DNA of 64,000 nucleotides from an uncultured Candidatus Saccharibacteria bacterium (lineage in GTDB: Bacteria > Patescibacteriota > Saccharimonadia > Saccharimonadales > Saccharimonadaceae), in contig CALEJV010000003.1 in assembly GCA_937898545.1 (NCBI GenBank), positions 253,193 through 317,192 of the forward strand, in the 5' to 3' direction. A program made the position numbers and the translations under genes. The notes under the pieces were generated by a model that was not told the DNA's origin, made no database searches, and worked only from the letters and a program-made list of their open reading frames with translations. This document shows, piece after piece, positions 40,083 to 45,645 of this stretch; positions within the stretch are counted from its first letter, which is position 1; every line of letters begins with the position of its first letter.

Positions 40083-40508
40083 ATGGCAAAAAAAGTTATC
40101 GGCAACCTGAAGCTTCGTATTCCAGCTGGCCGTGCCACCGCCGGGCCACCCGTTGGTAGCACACTTGGTCAGTGGGGCTTGAATATGATGGACTTCATCA
40201 ACCCATTCAACGACGCCACCAAGGCAGATATGGGCAAGGACGTCATCGTCCATATCCAAGTGTTTGAGGACCGCACCTTTGCATGGCGCAGCCTCGGCCA
40301 GCCCGTTGATGATATGATCCGTACTGCGATCGGTATCAAGAAGGGCAGTAGCAAGCCACACAGCGACAAGGTTGGGACGATCACCCGAGCACAGCTTGAA
40401 GAGATCGCTCAGGCAAAAATGGAGCAACTCAACGCTATCAGTCTCGAAGGAGCTATCAAGACGGTGGCAGGTACTGCTCGCAGCATGGGCGTGGAAGTCA
40501 CTGACTAA
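40083..40508 (+). CDS. rplK: 50S ribosomal protein L11
   Basis: IPAG.AT.GPPVG..LGQ.G.N.M.F and GTARSMG.EV. Confidence 0.99.
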   Translation: MAKKVIGNLKLRIPAGRATAGPPVGSTLGQWGLNMMDFINPFNDATKADMGKDVIVHIQVFEDRTFAWRSLGQPVDDMIRTAIGIKKGSSKPHSDKVGTITRAQLEEIAQAKMEQLNAISLEGAIKTVAGTARSMGVEVTD

Positions 40509-40525
40509 TCCGCTCGGCGCACATC

Positions 40526-40554
40526 AAAATACCTCTGCTAGCAGAGGTATTTTT
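40526..40554 (+). terminator. Intrinsic terminator after rplK
   Basis: AAAATACCTCTGC...GCAGAGGTATTTT hairpin. Confidence 0.8.
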
Positions 40555-40562
40555 GGTATAAA

Positions 40563-40592
40563 TTGACATATTTTGCAATAGTAGTTTACAAT
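40563..40592 (+). promoter_or_regulatory. Sigma70 promoter giving a leaderless transcript
   Basis: TTGACA (40563-68), 18-nt spacer, TACAAT (40587-92), then 6 nt to the ATG at 40599. Confidence 0.75.
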
Positions 40593-40598
40593 AACAGT

Positions 40599-41138
40599 AT
40601 GCGTAAACTCCTCCTCGACAAAATCTCTATACCAATCCTTATTCTTGGCGTGTTCGTCGTTGCGGCGATTGGCTGGTGGCTATATTATATGACGATCGGC
40701 AGCTTCACAACGACGATCTTCTATGGGCGCTTCGATCACGATGCAATTCGCCATATGGATGTGAGCTATCAGTCGGGGTATGCGATAGACGGCTGGGATG
40801 GCGATAATGGTATGGTTATTGGCACCATCACCGACAAAGCGACGCGCGATCGCTTGCTGAGCATGCAGCCCTTTACTGATTGCCCACACGGTTGCTCGGG
40901 GTGGTATCATTACGGAGACAACCTCCCTCACCCTGAGTCGGTATTTCGAGACACCGCTATCCTTGGTAATCACACTATTCCACCAGAGAAGTTTCGTGAT
41001 CAAGCTCGAGCAGCCATCGGTAGCGACAACCACTGCGTGGCACGCTATTCGTCGAGCCATCGCACCAACGATGTATTTTGCTTCTCACCAAGTAGCGGGG
41101 CGTTTGTCTATGAGTTTGCTGAGTTGAATGGAATGTAG
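40599..41138 (+). CDS. Membrane-anchored Cys-containing surface protein (paralogue of 63546->64000)
   Basis: N-terminal TM helix, then PFTDCPHGCSGW and CVARY motifs. Confidence 0.75.
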   Translation: MRKLLLDKISIPILILGVFVVAAIGWWLYYMTIGSFTTTIFYGRFDHDAIRHMDVSYQSGYAIDGWDGDNGMVIGTITDKATRDRLLSMQPFTDCPHGCSGWYHYGDNLPHPESVFRDTAILGNHTIPPEKFRDQARAAIGSDNHCVARYSSSHRTNDVFCFSPSSGAFVYEFAELNGM

Positions 41139-41241
41139 ATAAATAGCATGCTAGTGTCGGTAAGAACGAGAGAAATACTGCGATATTTAAGGATATAACC
41201 ACCTTCAAATTAAGAAGATATGTAGCACAAGAGGAACGATC

Positions 41242-41751
41242 ATGAGCGCATCATCCACCCGCGTCCAGCAACCACAAAATATGCCAGTGCGTCGCACCAA
41301 GCAGATGGTACGGCTATGGCTAATCTTTGTTATTGTTGCGCTGATATCAGAGGCGATATCATATATAGTCAATTACTCTACGACTCACTACACACGAATA
41401 GATCCAGTTTGGGCAGCTACCGTAATTTTCAGTATAGATGCAGCTTGCTTTGCGGCTGGCATGCTATGGCTTGGCCGTGGTCGTAGGCCTATTTCGCGCA
41501 TCATCTATGGCTCAGCAGCGTTCTTAATGGGCGCATTTGCCTTCCAGGCTGGACATGGATTCATTCCCACCTCAATAACTATAGCACTGAGCTTCCTTGC
41601 CGCGACGCTTGCTACCATTCCTCGCTTTCACGTGCGGCATTACAAGCAGGTAGAGATAGCGATGAGTGTGTTGATTATCGTTGGCGCACTTGGGCTAGCA
41701 TGGGCGTTTCGTATTGTTAGTATGTATCATCCACCTCTGCAGATTCATTGA
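41242..41751 (+). CDS. Integral membrane hypothetical protein
   Basis: About 5 hydrophobic helices; GAGGA SD upstream. Confidence 0.7.
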   Translation: MSASSTRVQQPQNMPVRRTKQMVRLWLIFVIVALISEAISYIVNYSTTHYTRIDPVWAATVIFSIDAACFAAGMLWLGRGRRPISRIIYGSAAFLMGAFAFQAGHGFIPTSITIALSFLAATLATIPRFHVRHYKQVEIAMSVLIIVGALGLAWAFRIVSMYHPPLQIH

Positions 41752-41926
41752 AAAATGGCAACGTATCGACCTAAGGGAAGAGCTGTGACCTATAAGCCTG
41801 CAGAAGTACTTTCACACTTATAGAATAAATATTATCAAGACACACCATACCTCTTAACCTACACGAACCGTTCCAAGCGTTGAGAGTTAAGTAATTAGAA
41901 ATTAGATTGAGTATTGCTCGACAATG

Positions 41927-43483
41927 TCAACGCCTTCTTCGTCGTAGCCACAGGACACCGACCACCAGCACCATTAGCATGATGAACAGCCCGATTGCGA
42001 AACTGGTCACCATTCCCCAGTCGGTGGCACGGTGCACGACGTCGGCAAGAAGGCTGCGCCCGGCACCGGGGGCACTAGCCGTCGTACGCAGTCCCTGTCC
42101 TGAGCGCACGCTGCTGACAAGTTCCTGTGCACCCACCGGCCACTGATGACGCACCACGTGCTCGCTCGCACTACCGAACCCCACGCCGGAGACAGCCACG
42201 CCGAGCACCACGCCGATCTGCCTCATCGCAGCGGACAGCCCAGAGGCCGCACCTGCCTCATCACCCTCGAAGGAGGCGACCGCCAGCTCGTTGACCACGG
42301 TCCCGGCAGCGCCAACCGCGATGCCCGCCAGGATCAGGCCCGGCAGGAGCACTACCCAGGTCGATGAGCCGTACAACAGTACCCATGACATCAGCGCCGC
42401 GCACCCGACGACAAGGATCCCCAGCAGCCTGGCCGACGGCGTCCAGCGCCCATTACCGCCACGAAACAGCCACGCCCCCGCGATGGCACAGAGACTGAAC
42501 GGGAGGAAGCAGAGTCCGACCTGCAGGGGTGAAAACAGGTAGATATTCTGCGCATACAGCGACAGCCAGGGCATCTGCCCCACCAGACCAGCCTGGACGG
42601 CAAAGCCGGTCAGGATACTCACCACATAGAGCCGGTCAGTCAGCAGGCGTCCCGGAACCATAGGTGCGTCCGAGCGCCGCTCGACGGCCATGAACAGCCC
42701 CATCGCGGCCAGTCCGACGGCAACGCCACCGAGCGTGCGCGCGCTAGTCCACCCCCAGGCCGGCCCCTCCAGCAGGACTACTGTCACTGCTCCAACAGCA
42801 AGAATTGCCAGCAATGTCCCAAGCCAATCTACTCCTGAGTTATTACGGTCTGTACTTCGGTCCTTCACGTACCACGACGCCAGCCAAGATGCTACCCCCA
42901 CAGGAACGTTGATCCAAAAGATAGAGCGCCACCCAGCGACTAAGACCAAACCACCGCCTGCCAGTGGCCCCACTGCGATGGCCAACCCTGAGATGAGCCC
43001 GTAAATCCCAGTAGCTCGTGCCCGCTCGCGTCCAGCGGGGTAGTGATCAGAAATCATTGGCACGCCGACGCCCAAGAAGATCGCCCCACCGACCGCCTGA
43101 ATAGCCCGGAAAGCGTTGAGTACAGCCATCGAAGGGGCTAATGCGCACACGGCTGACCCCACCGTGAACAGGACCAGCCCCCATCGGAACAATCGCAGCC
43201 GCCCCAGATTTCTGCTTAGAGTCGCTGCAGACATCAGCAACGCTCCCAACGGTAGTGTGTAGGCGTTAACCACCCATTGCAGCTCACTCTGCGACGCGCC
43301 AAGACTCTGCCCGATATCACCCAGTGCCACCGACACCACCGTGATATCCAGGACGTTCATGAAACTCACCGTGCAGACGAGCACAAGCGCCAGAACGCGA
43401 CTATTTATTAGCCCTGCTACTTTGCGACTACTCGACTCGATTACAGCTCCCATATTCTGTCGATTCACTCTTTGTTCCTCCAC
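41927..43483 (-). CDS. DHA2 (EmrB/QacA-like) 14-TM MFS efflux transporter
   Basis: LDITVV.VAL..I...L, LQWVVNAY.L, G..R.F..GL.LF...S..CA, R..Q..GG, GP..GG.L, WR.IFWINVP.G and DW.G. Confidence 0.95.
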   Translation of the reverse strand: MEEQRVNRQNMGAVIESSSRKVAGLINSRVLALVLVCTVSFMNVLDITVVSVALGDIGQSLGASQSELQWVVNAYTLPLGALLMSAATLSRNLGRLRLFRWGLVLFTVGSAVCALAPSMAVLNAFRAIQAVGGAIFLGVGVPMISDHYPAGRERARATGIYGLISGLAIAVGPLAGGGLVLVAGWRSIFWINVPVGVASWLASWYVKDRSTDRNNSGVDWLGTLLAILAVGAVTVVLLEGPAWGWTSARTLGGVAVGLAAMGLFMAVERRSDAPMVPGRLLTDRLYVVSILTGFAVQAGLVGQMPWLSLYAQNIYLFSPLQVGLCFLPFSLCAIAGAWLFRGGNGRWTPSARLLGILVVGCAALMSWVLLYGSSTWVVLLPGLILAGIAVGAAGTVVNELAVASFEGDEAGAASGLSAAMRQIGVVLGVAVSGVGFGSASEHVVRHQWPVGAQELVSSVRSGQGLRTTASAPGAGRSLLADVVHRATDWGMVTSFAIGLFIMLMVLVVGVLWLRRRRR

Positions 43484-44100
43484 ATCTAGCCGACCGTCAA
43501 CTGATTAGGCCCTGTAGGCCTACCTGAATAATCTTCCCATCCAGTACCACGATCTGTCGATCCACTCCTCGACAGCGTTGAAGTCGGTCGTTAGTAATTC
43601 CTGTATTATATAGATAAAGGTCGTTTCTCGGCCATATTTCTATATAATCATAGAAGATATACCATGTAAAGGCTGTGAGATTGGGATATTGATGCAATCA
43701 TTCCTACATACCATATATTTCTATACTAACCAATAGACATAGCAGCAGCAGTACGAACACAACGTCGGCAGCAATCTCGAGCAATTATTGACAGCATGAG
43801 CCTCAAGATGCGGCGGCTACGGAAGCTGACAAGTAACAGTTGAACACCTTTGCGTGGGAAGTGGTTTTGACCGATAATCTTGTGGCGAGGCTAACATAAA
43901 TGAAAGTGGGTGGCGTCGCATTCACGATAGGGTAGTTGGCTTGCTAAGATGCTACTTTGCTCTACTAATTACACCATAAACTATTCGATGGTATCTCCGA
44001 CTGAGGTAGCAACTATCGGCCACTCAACACTGATCGGCAAAAACGTTATTCCTCGCAATGGTAAGTAGTGCGACAGCTAATAGCAGCCTGGAAGCCTCTC

Positions 44101-44146
44101 GAGACGACGAAGTCACATTGAGCCAACCAAGTGACATCGTCGTCTC
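44101..44146. repeat. Long imperfect inverted repeat
   Basis: GAGACGACGAAGTCAC(A)TTG-AGCCAAC-CAAGTGACATCGTCGTCTC: 16-bp arms with one mismatch, extended by a 3-bp inner stem. Confidence 0.85.
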
Positions 44147-44221
44147 GGTACCAGATGGGTCAGGCTTGCACGGTCTGCCAGATGATGGCCTTCCTGTCCC
44201 AAAACCCAGCAAAAAACAAGC

Positions 44222-44258
44222 AAAAACCCACGTCATGGGGCTTCCATGACGTGGGTTT
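44222..44258 (-). terminator. Terminator downstream of tRNA-Pro
   Basis: AAACCCACGTCATGG / CCATGACGTGGGTTT stem with an A-run on the plus strand (U-tract on the minus strand). Confidence 0.85.
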
Positions 44259-44272
44259 GAGTGTTGACTCAA

Positions 44273-44348
44273 TGGTCGGGGTGACAAGACTTGAACTTGC
44301 GACCTCACGGCCCCCAGCCGTACGCGCTACCAGCTGCGCCACACCCCG
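44273..44348 (-). tRNA. tRNA-Pro(GGG)
   Basis: CGGGGTG acceptor, anticodon arm TACGG-CTGGGGG-CCGTG and encoded CCA. Confidence 0.96.
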
Positions 44349-44483
44349 ACAACGCCTCTCATTATAGCACAATTGGTGACGCGTGCTCAAAAATAGCTAC
44401 TCTGTTATTTTCGCATTGTACAGGTTTATTATCTCATGCTGCAGGACCCATATATGCTATACTAGAAAAGTTAATGAGTAATC

Positions 44484-44512
44484 GTGGGAGGCACCCAAGC
44501 CGCTTGCACCAC
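44484..44512 (+). promoter_or_regulatory. L1-binding autoregulatory operator upstream of rplA
   Basis: GUGG-GAG-GCA...UGC-A-CCAC immediately before the SD, matching the known L1-binding asymmetric loop. Own promoter TG-C-TATACT at 44455-44463. Confidence 0.7.
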
Positions 44513-44524
44513 AGAAAGGATACT

Positions 44525-45505
44525 ATGGCAAAAAAAGCCGATCTGCTTGAAAAAGCAGCAGAGCTGAAACTCGATGTTTCAGAAAAAAATACCATTGCAG
44601 AGATTGAGGCGGCCATCGCTGCAGCAAACGACAAGGATGTCATTGCCCAGCGCGAAGCCACCGTTGCAAAGGCTGGTAAGCGTAGCCAAAAGGCTCTCGA
44701 CGAGGCCGAAGCGAAGGCTGAGAAAGAAGCCCGCAAAGAGGCTGGCGATACAACGCCTCAGGGTGATGTCGATGCAGCTATCAAGAAAGGACCCGCACCG
44801 AAGGTTCGCCCGCTAATTGAGCGCCGCGGCAAGGCCTATCGAAAACTAGCTGAGAAGGTTGAAAAAGATAAGGTGTACTCACTAGACGAAGCACTCCAGC
44901 TTGCGACTGAGACCAATCCTGCTAAGTTTGATGCGAGTGTTGAGCTGCACGTCCGTCTTGGTGTTGATCCACGCCAGGCTGATCAAAATATCCGCTCGAC
45001 AGTTGTCTTGCCACACGGCACAGGCAAGACTGTTCGCGTTGCCGTCTTTGCACCAGAAGCTGAGGTTGCAACTGCTACCAAAGCAGGGGCAGACATTGCT
45101 GGCGAAGAGGCTATCATCAAGCTGCTCGACAAGGGTACGCTAGACTTTGACGTTTTGATCGCCACCCCGCAGTACATGCCAAAGCTTGGTAAATACGCCC
45201 GTCTGCTTGGACCAAAGGGTCTGATGCCTAACCCAAAGAGCGGTACTGTAACAACTGACATTGCAACTGCCGTCACTGAGGCAAAAGCTGGTAAGGTGGA
45301 GTACCGCGTAGACAAGCAAGCCGCGATTCACCTCAGTATCGGCAAGGTAAGCTTTGGTACAGAGAAGCTCCGCGCTAACGCCGATGCCTTCTTCGCTAGC
45401 TTGCAAGCTCAAAAGCCAAGCTCGCTCAAGGGTGTATATGTCAAATCCATCGCAGCTGCAACGACGATGGGACCTGGCATCAAGGTTGAGCACAAACTCG
45501 ACTAG
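44525..45505 (+). CDS. rplA: 50S ribosomal protein L1 with ~95-aa N-terminal extension
   Basis: KFDASVELH.RLG.DPR.ADQ.IR..V.LPHGTGK, LG.YAR.LGPKGLMPNPK.GT and TTMGPGI. SD AGAAAGGA before the ATG at 44525. Confidence 0.97.
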   Translation: MAKKADLLEKAAELKLDVSEKNTIAEIEAAIAAANDKDVIAQREATVAKAGKRSQKALDEAEAKAEKEARKEAGDTTPQGDVDAAIKKGPAPKVRPLIERRGKAYRKLAEKVEKDKVYSLDEALQLATETNPAKFDASVELHVRLGVDPRQADQNIRSTVVLPHGTGKTVRVAVFAPEAEVATATKAGADIAGEEAIIKLLDKGTLDFDVLIATPQYMPKLGKYARLLGPKGLMPNPKSGTVTTDIATAVTEAKAGKVEYRVDKQAAIHLSIGKVSFGTEKLRANADAFFASLQAQKPSSLKGVYVKSIAAATTMGPGIKVEHKLD

Positions 45506-45645
45506 TAGAGTGTAACACTCGCCATAATACTGCCAGTCAGGGAAGCTGGCAGTATTATTTATGTGCCTACCTATGCATGATATGATGGAATGAGTGGTGA
45601 TACTCTCATACTATTCATTCATCATCACAGCAACGGAGGTGCTAT

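What the first reader, a model, noticed from the sequence alone, without database searches (positions are those of the whole stretch)
44525..44815. Ribosomal protein L1 with a ~95-aa N-terminal appendage
Seen in sequence: MAKKADLLEKAAELKLDVSEKNTIAEIEAAIAAAN... then a charged helical linker (KRSQKALDEAEAKAEKEARK) before the L1 core; 326 aa against the usual ~230. Inference: the first ~35 aa resemble a helix-extended-helix (Rho-N/SAP-like) nucleic-acid-binding module, which could add a new function at the L1 stalk (E-site tRNA handling, RNAP coupling). CPR ribosomes are known to lack some proteins, and some lineages lack L1 altogether.
Basis: partly seen in the sequence, partly recalled or inferred. 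Interest (0 to 1): 0.55.

Follow-up and report, generated by a model that had tools for sequence, protein, structure and literature searches.

The report
Saccharibacteria L1 with HeH-capped N-terminal extension
The ribosomal protein uL1 of this oral Saccharibacteria genome really carries a conserved, translated 100-residue N-terminal tail; the tail itself was already described in 2022, and what this work adds is its three-part anatomy, while its function is still unknown.

Summary
The gene rplA runs from 44525 to 45505 on the + strand and encodes 326 aa. The canonical uL1 core starts at residue about 101, so residues 1-100 are an extension.

The start codon is secure. It follows a Shine-Dalgarno sequence, no other start codon lies before residue 117, and it is conserved in about 60 relatives.

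The extension has three parts:
- A helix-extended-helix (HeH) cap, residues 1-35. The AF2 model has pLDDT 84. The best structural match is the Rho N-terminal subdomain at Z 5.4, which is weak. hhalign against Rho_N gives P 1e-4. There is no Pfam hit. The cap was found only in the window's own order.
- A basic motif, AKAGKRSxKA, followed by a charged helix, residues 46-72. It is present in 53 of the 54 class-level uL1 sequences aligned.
- A basic tail that leads into the core.

Within the family, the cap and the motif change at the protein level as slowly as the core does.

The extension itself is already published (Tsurumaki et al. 2022, PMC9297842: an amino-terminal uL1 region in Saccharibacteria with no Pfam match, in a lineage that lacks bL9). 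This scan's first readers also noted the same feature on about 43 other genomes.

Function is inferred, not shown. The likeliest role is extra anchoring at a bL9-less L1 stalk, with the slightly acidic cap serving as a tethered accessory module. A role in RNAP or DNA coupling is untested, and the cap's charge argues against it.

Interest is modest.

The parts
44455..44463 (+). Extended -10-like box TGCTATACT upstream of rplA. It is TGCTATAAT in most relatives.
   Evidence: Read. The column block is conserved in alignment A3. The consensus scan did not pick it up because there is no -35 match.
44484..44512 (+). Structured rplA leader, GUGGGAG-[hairpin]-CG..UUGCACCAC, a likely L1-binding mimic of the 23S H77/H78 site
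   Evidence: Conserved in 57 rplA upstream regions across the phylum. Three hairpin pairs keep pairing through double changes in 7, 15 and 20 sequences. The genome's own 23S L1-stalk site carries the same words, UUGGGAG...ACCAAC.
44515..44520 (+). Shine-Dalgarno sequence AAAGGA
   Evidence: AAAGGA or AAGGAG lies 5-12 nt before the ATG in about 60 relatives.
44525..45505 (+). rplA (uL1), 326 aa plus stop codon
44525..44629 (+). Module A, residues 1-35: helix-extended-helix (HeH) cap
   Evidence: AF2 models. VIA-align top match is the Rho N-terminal subdomain. hhalign against Rho_N gives P 1.2e-4. pN is 0.175, against 0.182 for the core. Profile hits in 53 of 201 class genomes, all in the window's own order, always one per genome and always in the L1 frame.
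44630..44659 (+). Variable acidic linker, residues 36-45 (9-36 aa in relatives)
   Evidence: Alignment A1. pN 0.547. Mean net charge -3. pLDDT below 50.
44660..44740 (+). Module B, residues 46-72: basic head AKAGKRSxKA followed by a charged helix
   Evidence: K49, K52 and K56 are invariant and G51, S54 and E60 nearly invariant across 54 class-level sequences. The 12-residue head never has gaps and carries a net charge of +4. pN 0.172. Helix 53-73 is modelled at pLDDT about 60-66.
44741..44824 (+). Module C, residues 73-100: an acidic GDTTPQ patch, then a basic tail KKGPxPxxRPxxERRGK that runs into the core
   Evidence: disordered, pLDDT 50-57; pN 0.272; tail 86-100 has net charge +4.
44825..45502 (+). 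Canonical uL1 core, residues 101-326
   Evidence: TIGR01169 at E 2.6e-91. PDB uL1 matches. pLDDT 88-97.
45526..45556 (+). Terminator-like hairpin followed by a T-rich tail after rplA
   Evidence: Read (arms AATACTGCCAG and CTGGCAGTATT). The scan reports its core at 45536-45550.

Best explanation
Shown: this is the genome's single, genuine uL1 gene. It is transcribed and translated from its own leader and SD. It carries a conserved 100-residue N-terminal extension made of three parts: an HeH-fold cap (residues 1-35, restricted to the window's own order), a variable acidic tether, and a basic motif AKAGKRSxKA with a charged helix (residues 46-72). A basic tail then runs into the core N-terminal arm. 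The basic motif is present in 53 of the 54 class-level sequences aligned.

Inferred: the two basic segments (residues 46-57 and 86-100) lie on ribosomal RNA or on neighbouring proteins at or below the L1 stalk. They would give uL1 extra anchoring in a ribosome that has no bL9, the protein that normally sits at the stalk base. The slightly acidic HeH cap hangs on the flexible tether as an accessory docking module, more probably for a protein or a structured partner than as a general nucleic-acid clamp. Lineages can lose the cap without losing the rest of the extension.
For: Gene identity and boundaries.

Start codon: the SD and a conserved leader precede it, upstream stop codons occur in relatives, and there is no internal start before residue 117.

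Selection: non-synonymous divergence among 24 same-family genes is 0.175 in the cap and 0.172 in the basic motif, against 0.182 in the core and 0.547 in the linker.

Anatomy and invariant residues.

Fold.

Distribution: the extension was found by protein search in 39 of 44 same-family genomes and always lies in L1 frames of 316-392 aa. The HeH profile hits 53 of 201 class genomes, all in the window's own order, one hit per genome.

Charge pattern: cap -1, linker -3, motif head +4, tail +4.

bL9: not found in the window's genome or in any of the 24 same-class genomes sampled, while 242 of 401 phylum genomes have it. The literature states that Saccharibacteria lack bL9 and that bL9 contacts the stalk base (PMC9297842).

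Stalk rRNA: H76-H78 is canonical here, so the extension is not replacing lost stalk RNA.
Against: No structure, cross-link or binding datum places the extension on the ribosome. The AF2 confidence for residues 46-100 is only 42-66.

The link with bL9 loss is confounded, because it rests on a single clade. Other classes of the phylum have lysine- and glutamate-rich uL1 extensions and still encode bL9: G500, G304, G462, G377, G475, G211, G306 and G285.

The HeH assignment rests on a predicted 45-residue model, a Z of 5.4 tied with unrelated helical hits, and a 55% hhalign probability. Foldseek and Pfam found nothing.
Confidence: 0.5

Rival explanations
1. The HeH cap is a nucleic-acid-binding module, as SAP and LEM domains are. 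It would give the L1 stalk a new contact with E-site tRNA or mRNA, or tether ribosomes to DNA or RNA polymerase.
For: The fold resembles Rho_N and SAP. K3, K4, K21 and T23, at the helix N-termini, are nearly invariant. Related N-terminal modules occur on non-L1 proteins, and three of those (P0225, P0264, P0265) match the C-terminal HeH part of the PHROG 'endonuclease VII' family at E 7e-7 to 4e-9. No Rho_N domain was found in this genome, and it is rare in the phylum at 7 of 151 genomes, so a different coupling device is conceivable.
Against: The cap has a net negative charge: -2 in this genome, mean -1 over 40 sequences. It sits on an acidic tether. It was not found in genera g3 and g17 of the same family or in any other order of the class, while the rest of the extension persists. 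In Rho the HeH subdomain is not the RNA-binding surface (my own knowledge of Rho structure, not tested here).
Confidence: 0.15
2. The extension acts mainly off the ribosome. It would tune the binding of free uL1 to its own mRNA leader (autoregulation) or act as an assembly or solubility chaperone segment for uL1.
For: rplA has its own conserved leader that mimics the 23S L1 site directly in front of the SD. The extension is attached to the N-terminal arm of domain I, the RNA-binding domain (for the boundaries; the role of domain I is from my own knowledge of L1-RNA structures).
Against: The same leader is present across the phylum in front of uL1 genes with quite different extensions (rows L062-L068). 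The leader therefore does not co-vary with the Saccharibacteria-type modules.
Confidence: 0.1
3. The extension is a tolerated, mostly disordered, charged tail with no specific function, like many low-complexity extensions of CPR ribosomal proteins.
For: Residues 36-51 and 74-100 are predicted to be disordered. Other classes carry simple lysine- and glutamate-rich tails at the same place.
Against: The cap and the basic motif change at the protein level as slowly as the uL1 core while synonymous sites are saturated. K49, K52 and K56 are invariant in the 54 class-level sequences aligned.
Confidence: 0.05
4. The start codon is miscalled and translation begins near the core, so the 'extension' is untranslated leader.
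For: None was found.
Against: There is no ATG, GTG or TTG between codon 1 and codon 117. The SD lies directly before codon 1 in about 60 genomes. The region is conserved at the amino-acid level with saturated synonymous change.
Confidence: 0.01

Closest known systems
CPR-specific amino-terminal region of uL1 (Tsurumaki, Saito, Tomita and Kanai 2022, RNA 28:1041; PMC9297842)
   Same: This is the same feature. That paper describes a 40-130 aa region at the amino terminus of uL1, present in Saccharibacteria among other groups, with no Pfam match, in lineages that lack bL9.
   Different: In the passages I read, the paper gives no fold and no sub-structure for it. Shown here are the HeH-like cap, the AKAGKRSxKA motif shared by 53 of 54 class-level sequences, the restriction of the cap to one order, and constraint equal to that of the core.
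Canonical bacterial uL1 (TIGR01169; for example Thermus thermophilus 1AD2 and 2HW8, and E. coli uL1 in 70S structures)
   Same: Residues 101-326 form a full two-domain uL1 (E 2.6e-91; PDB matches at 2e-71). The L1-stalk rRNA is also canonical.
   Different: All solved bacterial uL1 chains start where residue about 100 of this protein lies. None has the extension.
HeH modules: Rho N-terminal subdomain (Pfam Rho_N, PDB 1A62), SAP domains (2DO1, 1ZRJ, 2KW9), and the C-terminal domain of T4 endonuclease VII (1E7D)
   Same: All have two helices joined by an extended segment of about 10 residues and a hydrophobic pattern of the type L..A..LgL......I.eI..aI. They give the best or near-best structural matches and an in-register profile match to Rho_N.
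   Different: No Pfam Rho_N or SAP hit passes threshold. The loop is shorter. The net charge is negative. The module sits on a ribosomal protein.
Organellar uL1 with N-terminal additions (spinach chloroplast 4V61 chain BD, 352 aa; mammalian uL1m 7QI4, 325 aa)
   Same: These are uL1 proteins of similar total length with extra N-terminal sequence ahead of the core.
   Different: Their additions are unrelated in sequence. The matches begin only at query residue about 60, in low-complexity sequence. Their additions also include targeting peptides (my own knowledge).

Membership tests
uL1 (TIGR01169 rplA_bact / Pfam PF00687) | Full-length match above the curated cut-off | tested here: met
   TIGR01169 scores 305.1 bits against a cut-off of 216.3 and covers positions 2-225 of 227. 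PF00687 scores 200.8 bits against 32.2.
uL1 (TIGR01169 rplA_bact / Pfam PF00687) | Single-copy ribosomal gene with a cognate 23S L1-stalk site in the genome | tested here: met
   There is one L1 locus in the genome. H76-H78 of the genome's own 23S aligns to the bacterial model without indels.
CPR-specific uL1 amino-terminal region (PMC9297842) | 40-130 extra residues at the amino terminus of uL1, in Saccharibacteria, with no Pfam match | tested here: met
   The extension is 100 residues. The closest named relatives are 'Candidatus Saccharimonas sp.'. There is no Pfam or NCBIfam hit at E <= 0.09.
CPR-specific uL1 amino-terminal region (PMC9297842) | Occurs in lineages that lack bL9 | tested here: met
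   PF01281 was not found in the window's genome or in any of 24 same-class genomes, while 242 of 401 phylum genomes have it.
Rho_N (Pfam PF07498) | Sequence match to the family model at or above 24.9 bits | tested here: not met
   No hit at E <= 1 for the protein or for any of 40 homologous caps. The genome-wide six-frame search also gave none.
Rho_N (Pfam PF07498) | Profile-level and fold-level similarity to the Rho HeH subdomain | tested here: inconclusive
   hhalign gives probability 55% and P 1.2e-4 over 34 columns in register. VIA-align gives Z 5.4, rmsd 2.8 A over 41 residues against 1a62_A residues 8-48. That is the top rank, but it is tied with unrelated helical chains.
SAP (Pfam PF02037) | Sequence match to the family model; SAP-type fold | tested here: inconclusive
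   One of 40 caps reaches E 0.12. SAP structures 2do1, 1zrj and 2kw9 score Z 4.0-4.8.
Helix-extended-helix fold (general) | Two helices joined by an extended linker of about 10 residues, packed through conserved hydrophobic positions | tested here: met
   This is a prediction only. The model has H2-13, an extended stretch 14-23 and H24-44 with pLDDT 84-92. The conserved positions are L7, L8, A11, L14, L16, I24, I27 and I31.
L1 autoregulatory mRNA site (mimic of 23S H77/H78) | A conserved GGGAG ... ACCAC helix with an internal hairpin directly upstream of the regulated gene; binding of L1 | tested here: inconclusive
   The sequence and pairing pattern are present, with compensatory changes in 3 pairs, and match the genome's own 23S site. 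No Rfam family matched at E <= 1. Binding cannot be tested here.

The most novel reading that the evidence does not exclude
In one order of Saccharibacteria the L1 stalk carries a tethered HeH module that recruits a specific partner to the E-site side of the ribosome. The partner could be DNA or the nucleoid, RNA polymerase, a tRNA-handling or hibernation factor, or a host-derived molecule. At the same time the AKAGKRSxKA motif, seen across the class sequences aligned here, takes over the stalk-base position of the missing bL9. This would be a lineage-specific rewiring of a universal moving part of the ribosome.
Probability: 0.2. Interest if true: 0.6.

Novelty: already known. Interest (0 to 1): 0.3.

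Why it matters
The L1 stalk is the moving arm that removes spent tRNA from the ribosome, and its protein is almost invariant in length across bacteria. A conserved 100-residue addition, under constraint as strong as that on the core, in organisms that have lost the neighbouring protein bL9, suggests that the reduced ribosomes of Saccharibacteria have rebuilt this corner.

The existence of the addition is published. The value added here is a testable dissection:
- which 12 residues to look for on rRNA (46-57);
- which part is an optional cap (1-35);
- which lineages are natural deletion variants of the cap (genera g3 and g17 of the same family).

Cultivable oral Saccharibacteria make a ribosome structure feasible.

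Tried and rejected
- Pfam, NCBIfam and PHROGs scans of the extension and of 40 homologous caps gave no family.
- Foldseek of the cap model against the PDB gave nothing below E 3.8.
- An HMM of the cap against PDB sequences gave only chance-level hits, E >= 0.27.
- The ESM Atlas search by features gave no usable hit.
- Rfam gave no known leader family around rplA.
- I tested the idea that the basic motif is a duplicate of the core N-terminal arm (GKRS.KA..EAE against GKAYRKLAEKVE). hhalign gave P 0.16, so the idea is not supported.
- I tested the idea that the extension compensates for lost L1-stalk rRNA. It is rejected, because H76-H78 is intact.
- I tested the idea that long uL1 tracks bL9 loss across the phylum. 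It is not supported in general, because several families with 290-335-aa uL1 keep bL9.
- A search of the genome for a second copy of the extension found none at E <= 10.
- dN/dS proper could not be estimated because synonymous sites are saturated (pS about 0.74), so only pN is compared.
- Most of the 370 profile hits in the 1.84-billion-protein library are truncated or chimeric uL1 fragments from short contigs, not independent families.

Full report
**What is there.** NCBIfam TIGR01169 (bacterial rplA) aligns positions 2-225 of its 227 to residues 101-324 (E 2.6e-91, 305 bits against a cut-off of 216). Pfam Ribosomal_L1 covers residues 129-317. Every solved bacterial uL1 chain (220-242 aa) aligns from its residue 2-6 to query residues 100-105. 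Residues 1-100 are therefore an N-terminal extension. It is the only L1 gene in a 1.05-Mb genome that is 95% complete. The closest named relatives are 'Candidatus Saccharimonas sp.', and earlier notes of this scan place the genome among oral Nanosynbacter-type Saccharibacteria.

**Is the extension translated?**
- The ATG lies 5 nt after AAAGGA.
- No ATG, GTG or TTG lies between codon 1 and codon 117.
- I extracted rplA from about 60 other genomes of the family, order, class and phylum. In all of them the matching ATG follows AAAGGA or AAGGAG by 5-12 nt, behind a conserved ...UUGCACCAC... leader. In several there is a stop codon 1-6 codons upstream in frame.
- Among 24 same-family genes, synonymous sites are saturated (pS about 0.74).
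- Non-synonymous divergence in those genes is 0.175 for residues 1-35, 0.547 for 36-45, 0.172 for 46-72, 0.272 for 73-100 and 0.182 for the core.

Two segments of the extension are thus as constrained at the protein level as uL1 itself. A miscalled start is excluded for practical purposes.

**Anatomy (alignment A1, 54 sequences).**
- Module A, residues 1-35 (consensus MAKKAELLEeAkkLgLdVtEKNTIAEIEAAI).
- A variable acidic linker of 9-36 residues, mean net charge -3.
- Module B, residues 46-72. It begins with a 12-residue head, AKAGKRSxKA.., that is never gapped and carries a net charge of +4. K49, K52 and K56 are invariant, and G51, S54 and E60 nearly so. A charged helix follows.
- Module C, residues 73-100: an acidic GDTTPQ patch, then a basic tail KKGPxPxxRPxxERRGK (+4) that runs into the core N-terminal arm.

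AlphaFold2 on the alignment gives helices 2-13 and 24-45 (pLDDT about 80-84), helix 53-73 (about 60-66), disorder for 74-100, and a confident core. The cap alone, modelled with 40 homologues, has mean pLDDT 84.

**What is the cap?** The predicted topology is helix, an extended stretch of 10 residues, then helix.
- Against 48,161 PDB representatives, the top match is the N-terminal HeH subdomain of Rho (1a62_A residues 8-48, Z 5.4, rmsd 2.8 A, 41 residues aligned).
- SAP domains score Z 4.0-4.8, and the C-terminal domain of T4 endonuclease VII scores Z 4.6. These values are tied with unrelated helical chains and are suggestive only.
- Foldseek found nothing significant.
- No Pfam Rho_N, SAP or other model matched.
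- A planned profile-profile comparison with 11 Rho_N domains taken from genomes of the same phylum aligned 34 columns in register (P 1.2e-4, probability 55%). Control comparisons between unrelated pieces of the same protein gave P 0.15-0.47.
- A profile of the cap searched against 1.84 billion representative proteins gave 370 hits. Most are uL1 fragments from short contigs.
- Several hits are other proteins that begin with the same module: P0215, P0234 and P0253; P0247 and P0270; P0269.
- Others are actinobacterial-looking proteins with repeated copies (P0225, P0264, P0265). The copies in these three match the HeH part of the PHROG 'endonuclease VII' family at E 7e-7 to 4e-9. P0264 and P0265 also give weak, sub-threshold Pfam Rho_N matches (E 0.0025 and 0.049).

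I read the cap as a member of the broad HeH class but not as a member of the Pfam Rho_N or SAP families.

**Distribution.**
- The whole extension was found by protein search in 39 of 44 same-family genomes and in many families of the same order, always inside an L1 open frame of 316-392 aa.
- The cap profile hits 53 of 201 genomes sampled from the class, all within the window's own order (36 of 44 in its family).
- The cap profile found nothing in genera g3 (0 of 6) and g17 (0 of 2), or in any other order.
- Each positive genome has exactly one hit, and it lies in rplA.
- Cap-less relatives still carry module B (rows L041-L048, L053-L056, L059 and L060).
- One distant family (row L061) has a different HeH-looking N-terminus and lacks a clear module B.
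- Outside the class, several families have uL1 frames of 290-335 aa whose extensions are plain lysine- and glutamate-rich tails (rows L062-L069).

Module B is therefore the old, widely kept part of the extension, and the cap is a later, dispensable addition.

**Context.**
- The bL9 N-terminal domain was not found in the window's genome or in any of 24 same-class genomes, while 242 of 401 phylum genomes have it.
- This agrees with the literature.
- The association of extension with bL9 loss is not general. Genomes G500, G304, G462, G377, G475, G211, G306 and G285 have extended uL1 and also have bL9.
- The genome's own 23S rRNA aligns across H76-H78 without indels, so no stalk RNA is missing.
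- No Rho_N domain was found in the genome, and it is rare in the phylum at 7 of 151 genomes.
- rplK lies about 4 kb upstream, at 40083-40508. It is separated from rplA by other ORFs, the actinobacterial-type MFS gene that this scan has already reported, and tRNA-Pro.
- In 5 of 30 relatives rplK lies within 1.5 kb upstream of rplA.

**Prior knowledge.** Tsurumaki et al. [quoted passage not shown] They add that it matches no Pfam domain and that bL9 loss often goes with a unique uL1 sequence. The existence of the extension is therefore already known. In the held library I found no ribosome structure from Saccharibacteria or Patescibacteria, and no other paper that mentions both Saccharibacteria and the L1 stalk. 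First readers of this scan noted the same HeH-like uL1 extension on about 43 other genomes. Those notes are not independent evidence.

**Mechanism (inferred).** The extension hangs from the N-terminal arm of domain I, the RNA-binding domain of uL1 (family knowledge). Two short, strongly basic, length-invariant segments (residues 46-57 and 86-100) alternate with acidic or variable segments. This pattern is typical of ribosomal-protein extensions that lie on rRNA. The likeliest role is additional anchoring of uL1 at or below the stalk, in a ribosome whose stalk base lacks bL9.

The cap is slightly acidic (mean -1), sits on an acidic, variable tether, and is lost in some lineages. That fits an accessory docking module better than a general nucleic-acid clamp. 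I put about 0.5 on this composite. I put about 0.15 on a nucleic-acid or RNAP-coupling role for the cap, about 0.1 on an off-ribosome role (autoregulation or assembly), about 0.05 on no specific function, and about 0.01 on a miscalled start. The remaining probability covers roles I cannot name.

**Data caveat.** One genome in the phylum sample (G347) is flagged as unpublished. It contributes only to the tallies, and no specific claim rests on it.

**Verdict.** The feature itself is published and its function is open. The new elements are the module map, the HeH assignment and the natural cap-less variants.

Noticed in passing
window 44455-44524 (and upstream of rplA in loci L003-L068): rplA has its own extended -10-like box and a conserved structured leader, GUGGGAG-[hairpin]-CG..UUGCACCAC, that ends 2 nt before the SD. 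Three hairpin pairs show compensatory changes in 7, 15 and 20 of 57 sequences. The conserved words equal those of the genome's own 23S H77/H78 L1 site. This is probably an L1 autoregulatory site placed before rplA rather than rplK. No Rfam family matched it.
   Followed up: partly
window 40083-44524: rplK (40083-40508) and rplA are about 4 kb apart. Between them lie two small ORFs, a high-GC MFS transporter gene (41927-43483, - strand) and tRNA-Pro(GGG) (44273-44348, - strand). The MFS islet is already reported elsewhere in this scan (e1-5256833). Only 5 of 30 related loci have rplK within 1.5 kb upstream of rplA.
   Followed up: partly
L089 (G000:C7:31064-34178): The 23S rRNA gene is 3115 nt, against a model of 2925 positions, so about 190 extra nucleotides lie somewhere outside the L1-stalk region, which is canonical. 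I did not look for where the extra sequence lies, or whether it is an insertion or an intron.
   Followed up: no
whole genome G000 and phylum sample: No Rho_N domain was found in the window's genome, and full-length Rho-like frames were found in only 7 of 151 sampled genomes of the phylum (5 of them in one family, f56). Rho-dependent termination seems rare in this phylum.
   Followed up: partly
proteins P0215, P0234, P0253; P0247, P0270; P0269 (metagenomic): These are non-ribosomal proteins of 170-250 aa that begin with a module very like the uL1 cap (for example MA.K.ELL.QAKELGLDVTE.NTVAEI.AAL). An acidic linker and unrelated C-terminal domains with no Pfam or PHROG assignment follow. Their origin (phage or Saccharibacteria) and function are unknown, and they may point to the source of the cap.
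   Followed up: partly
L061 (G001:C2, same class, family f18): This uL1 has a different HeH-looking N-terminus (...KRGELNEFAATLGLNPDEYARIDDLRSAV...) and lacks the AKAGKRS motif. It may be an independent acquisition of an HeH cap on uL1.
   Followed up: no
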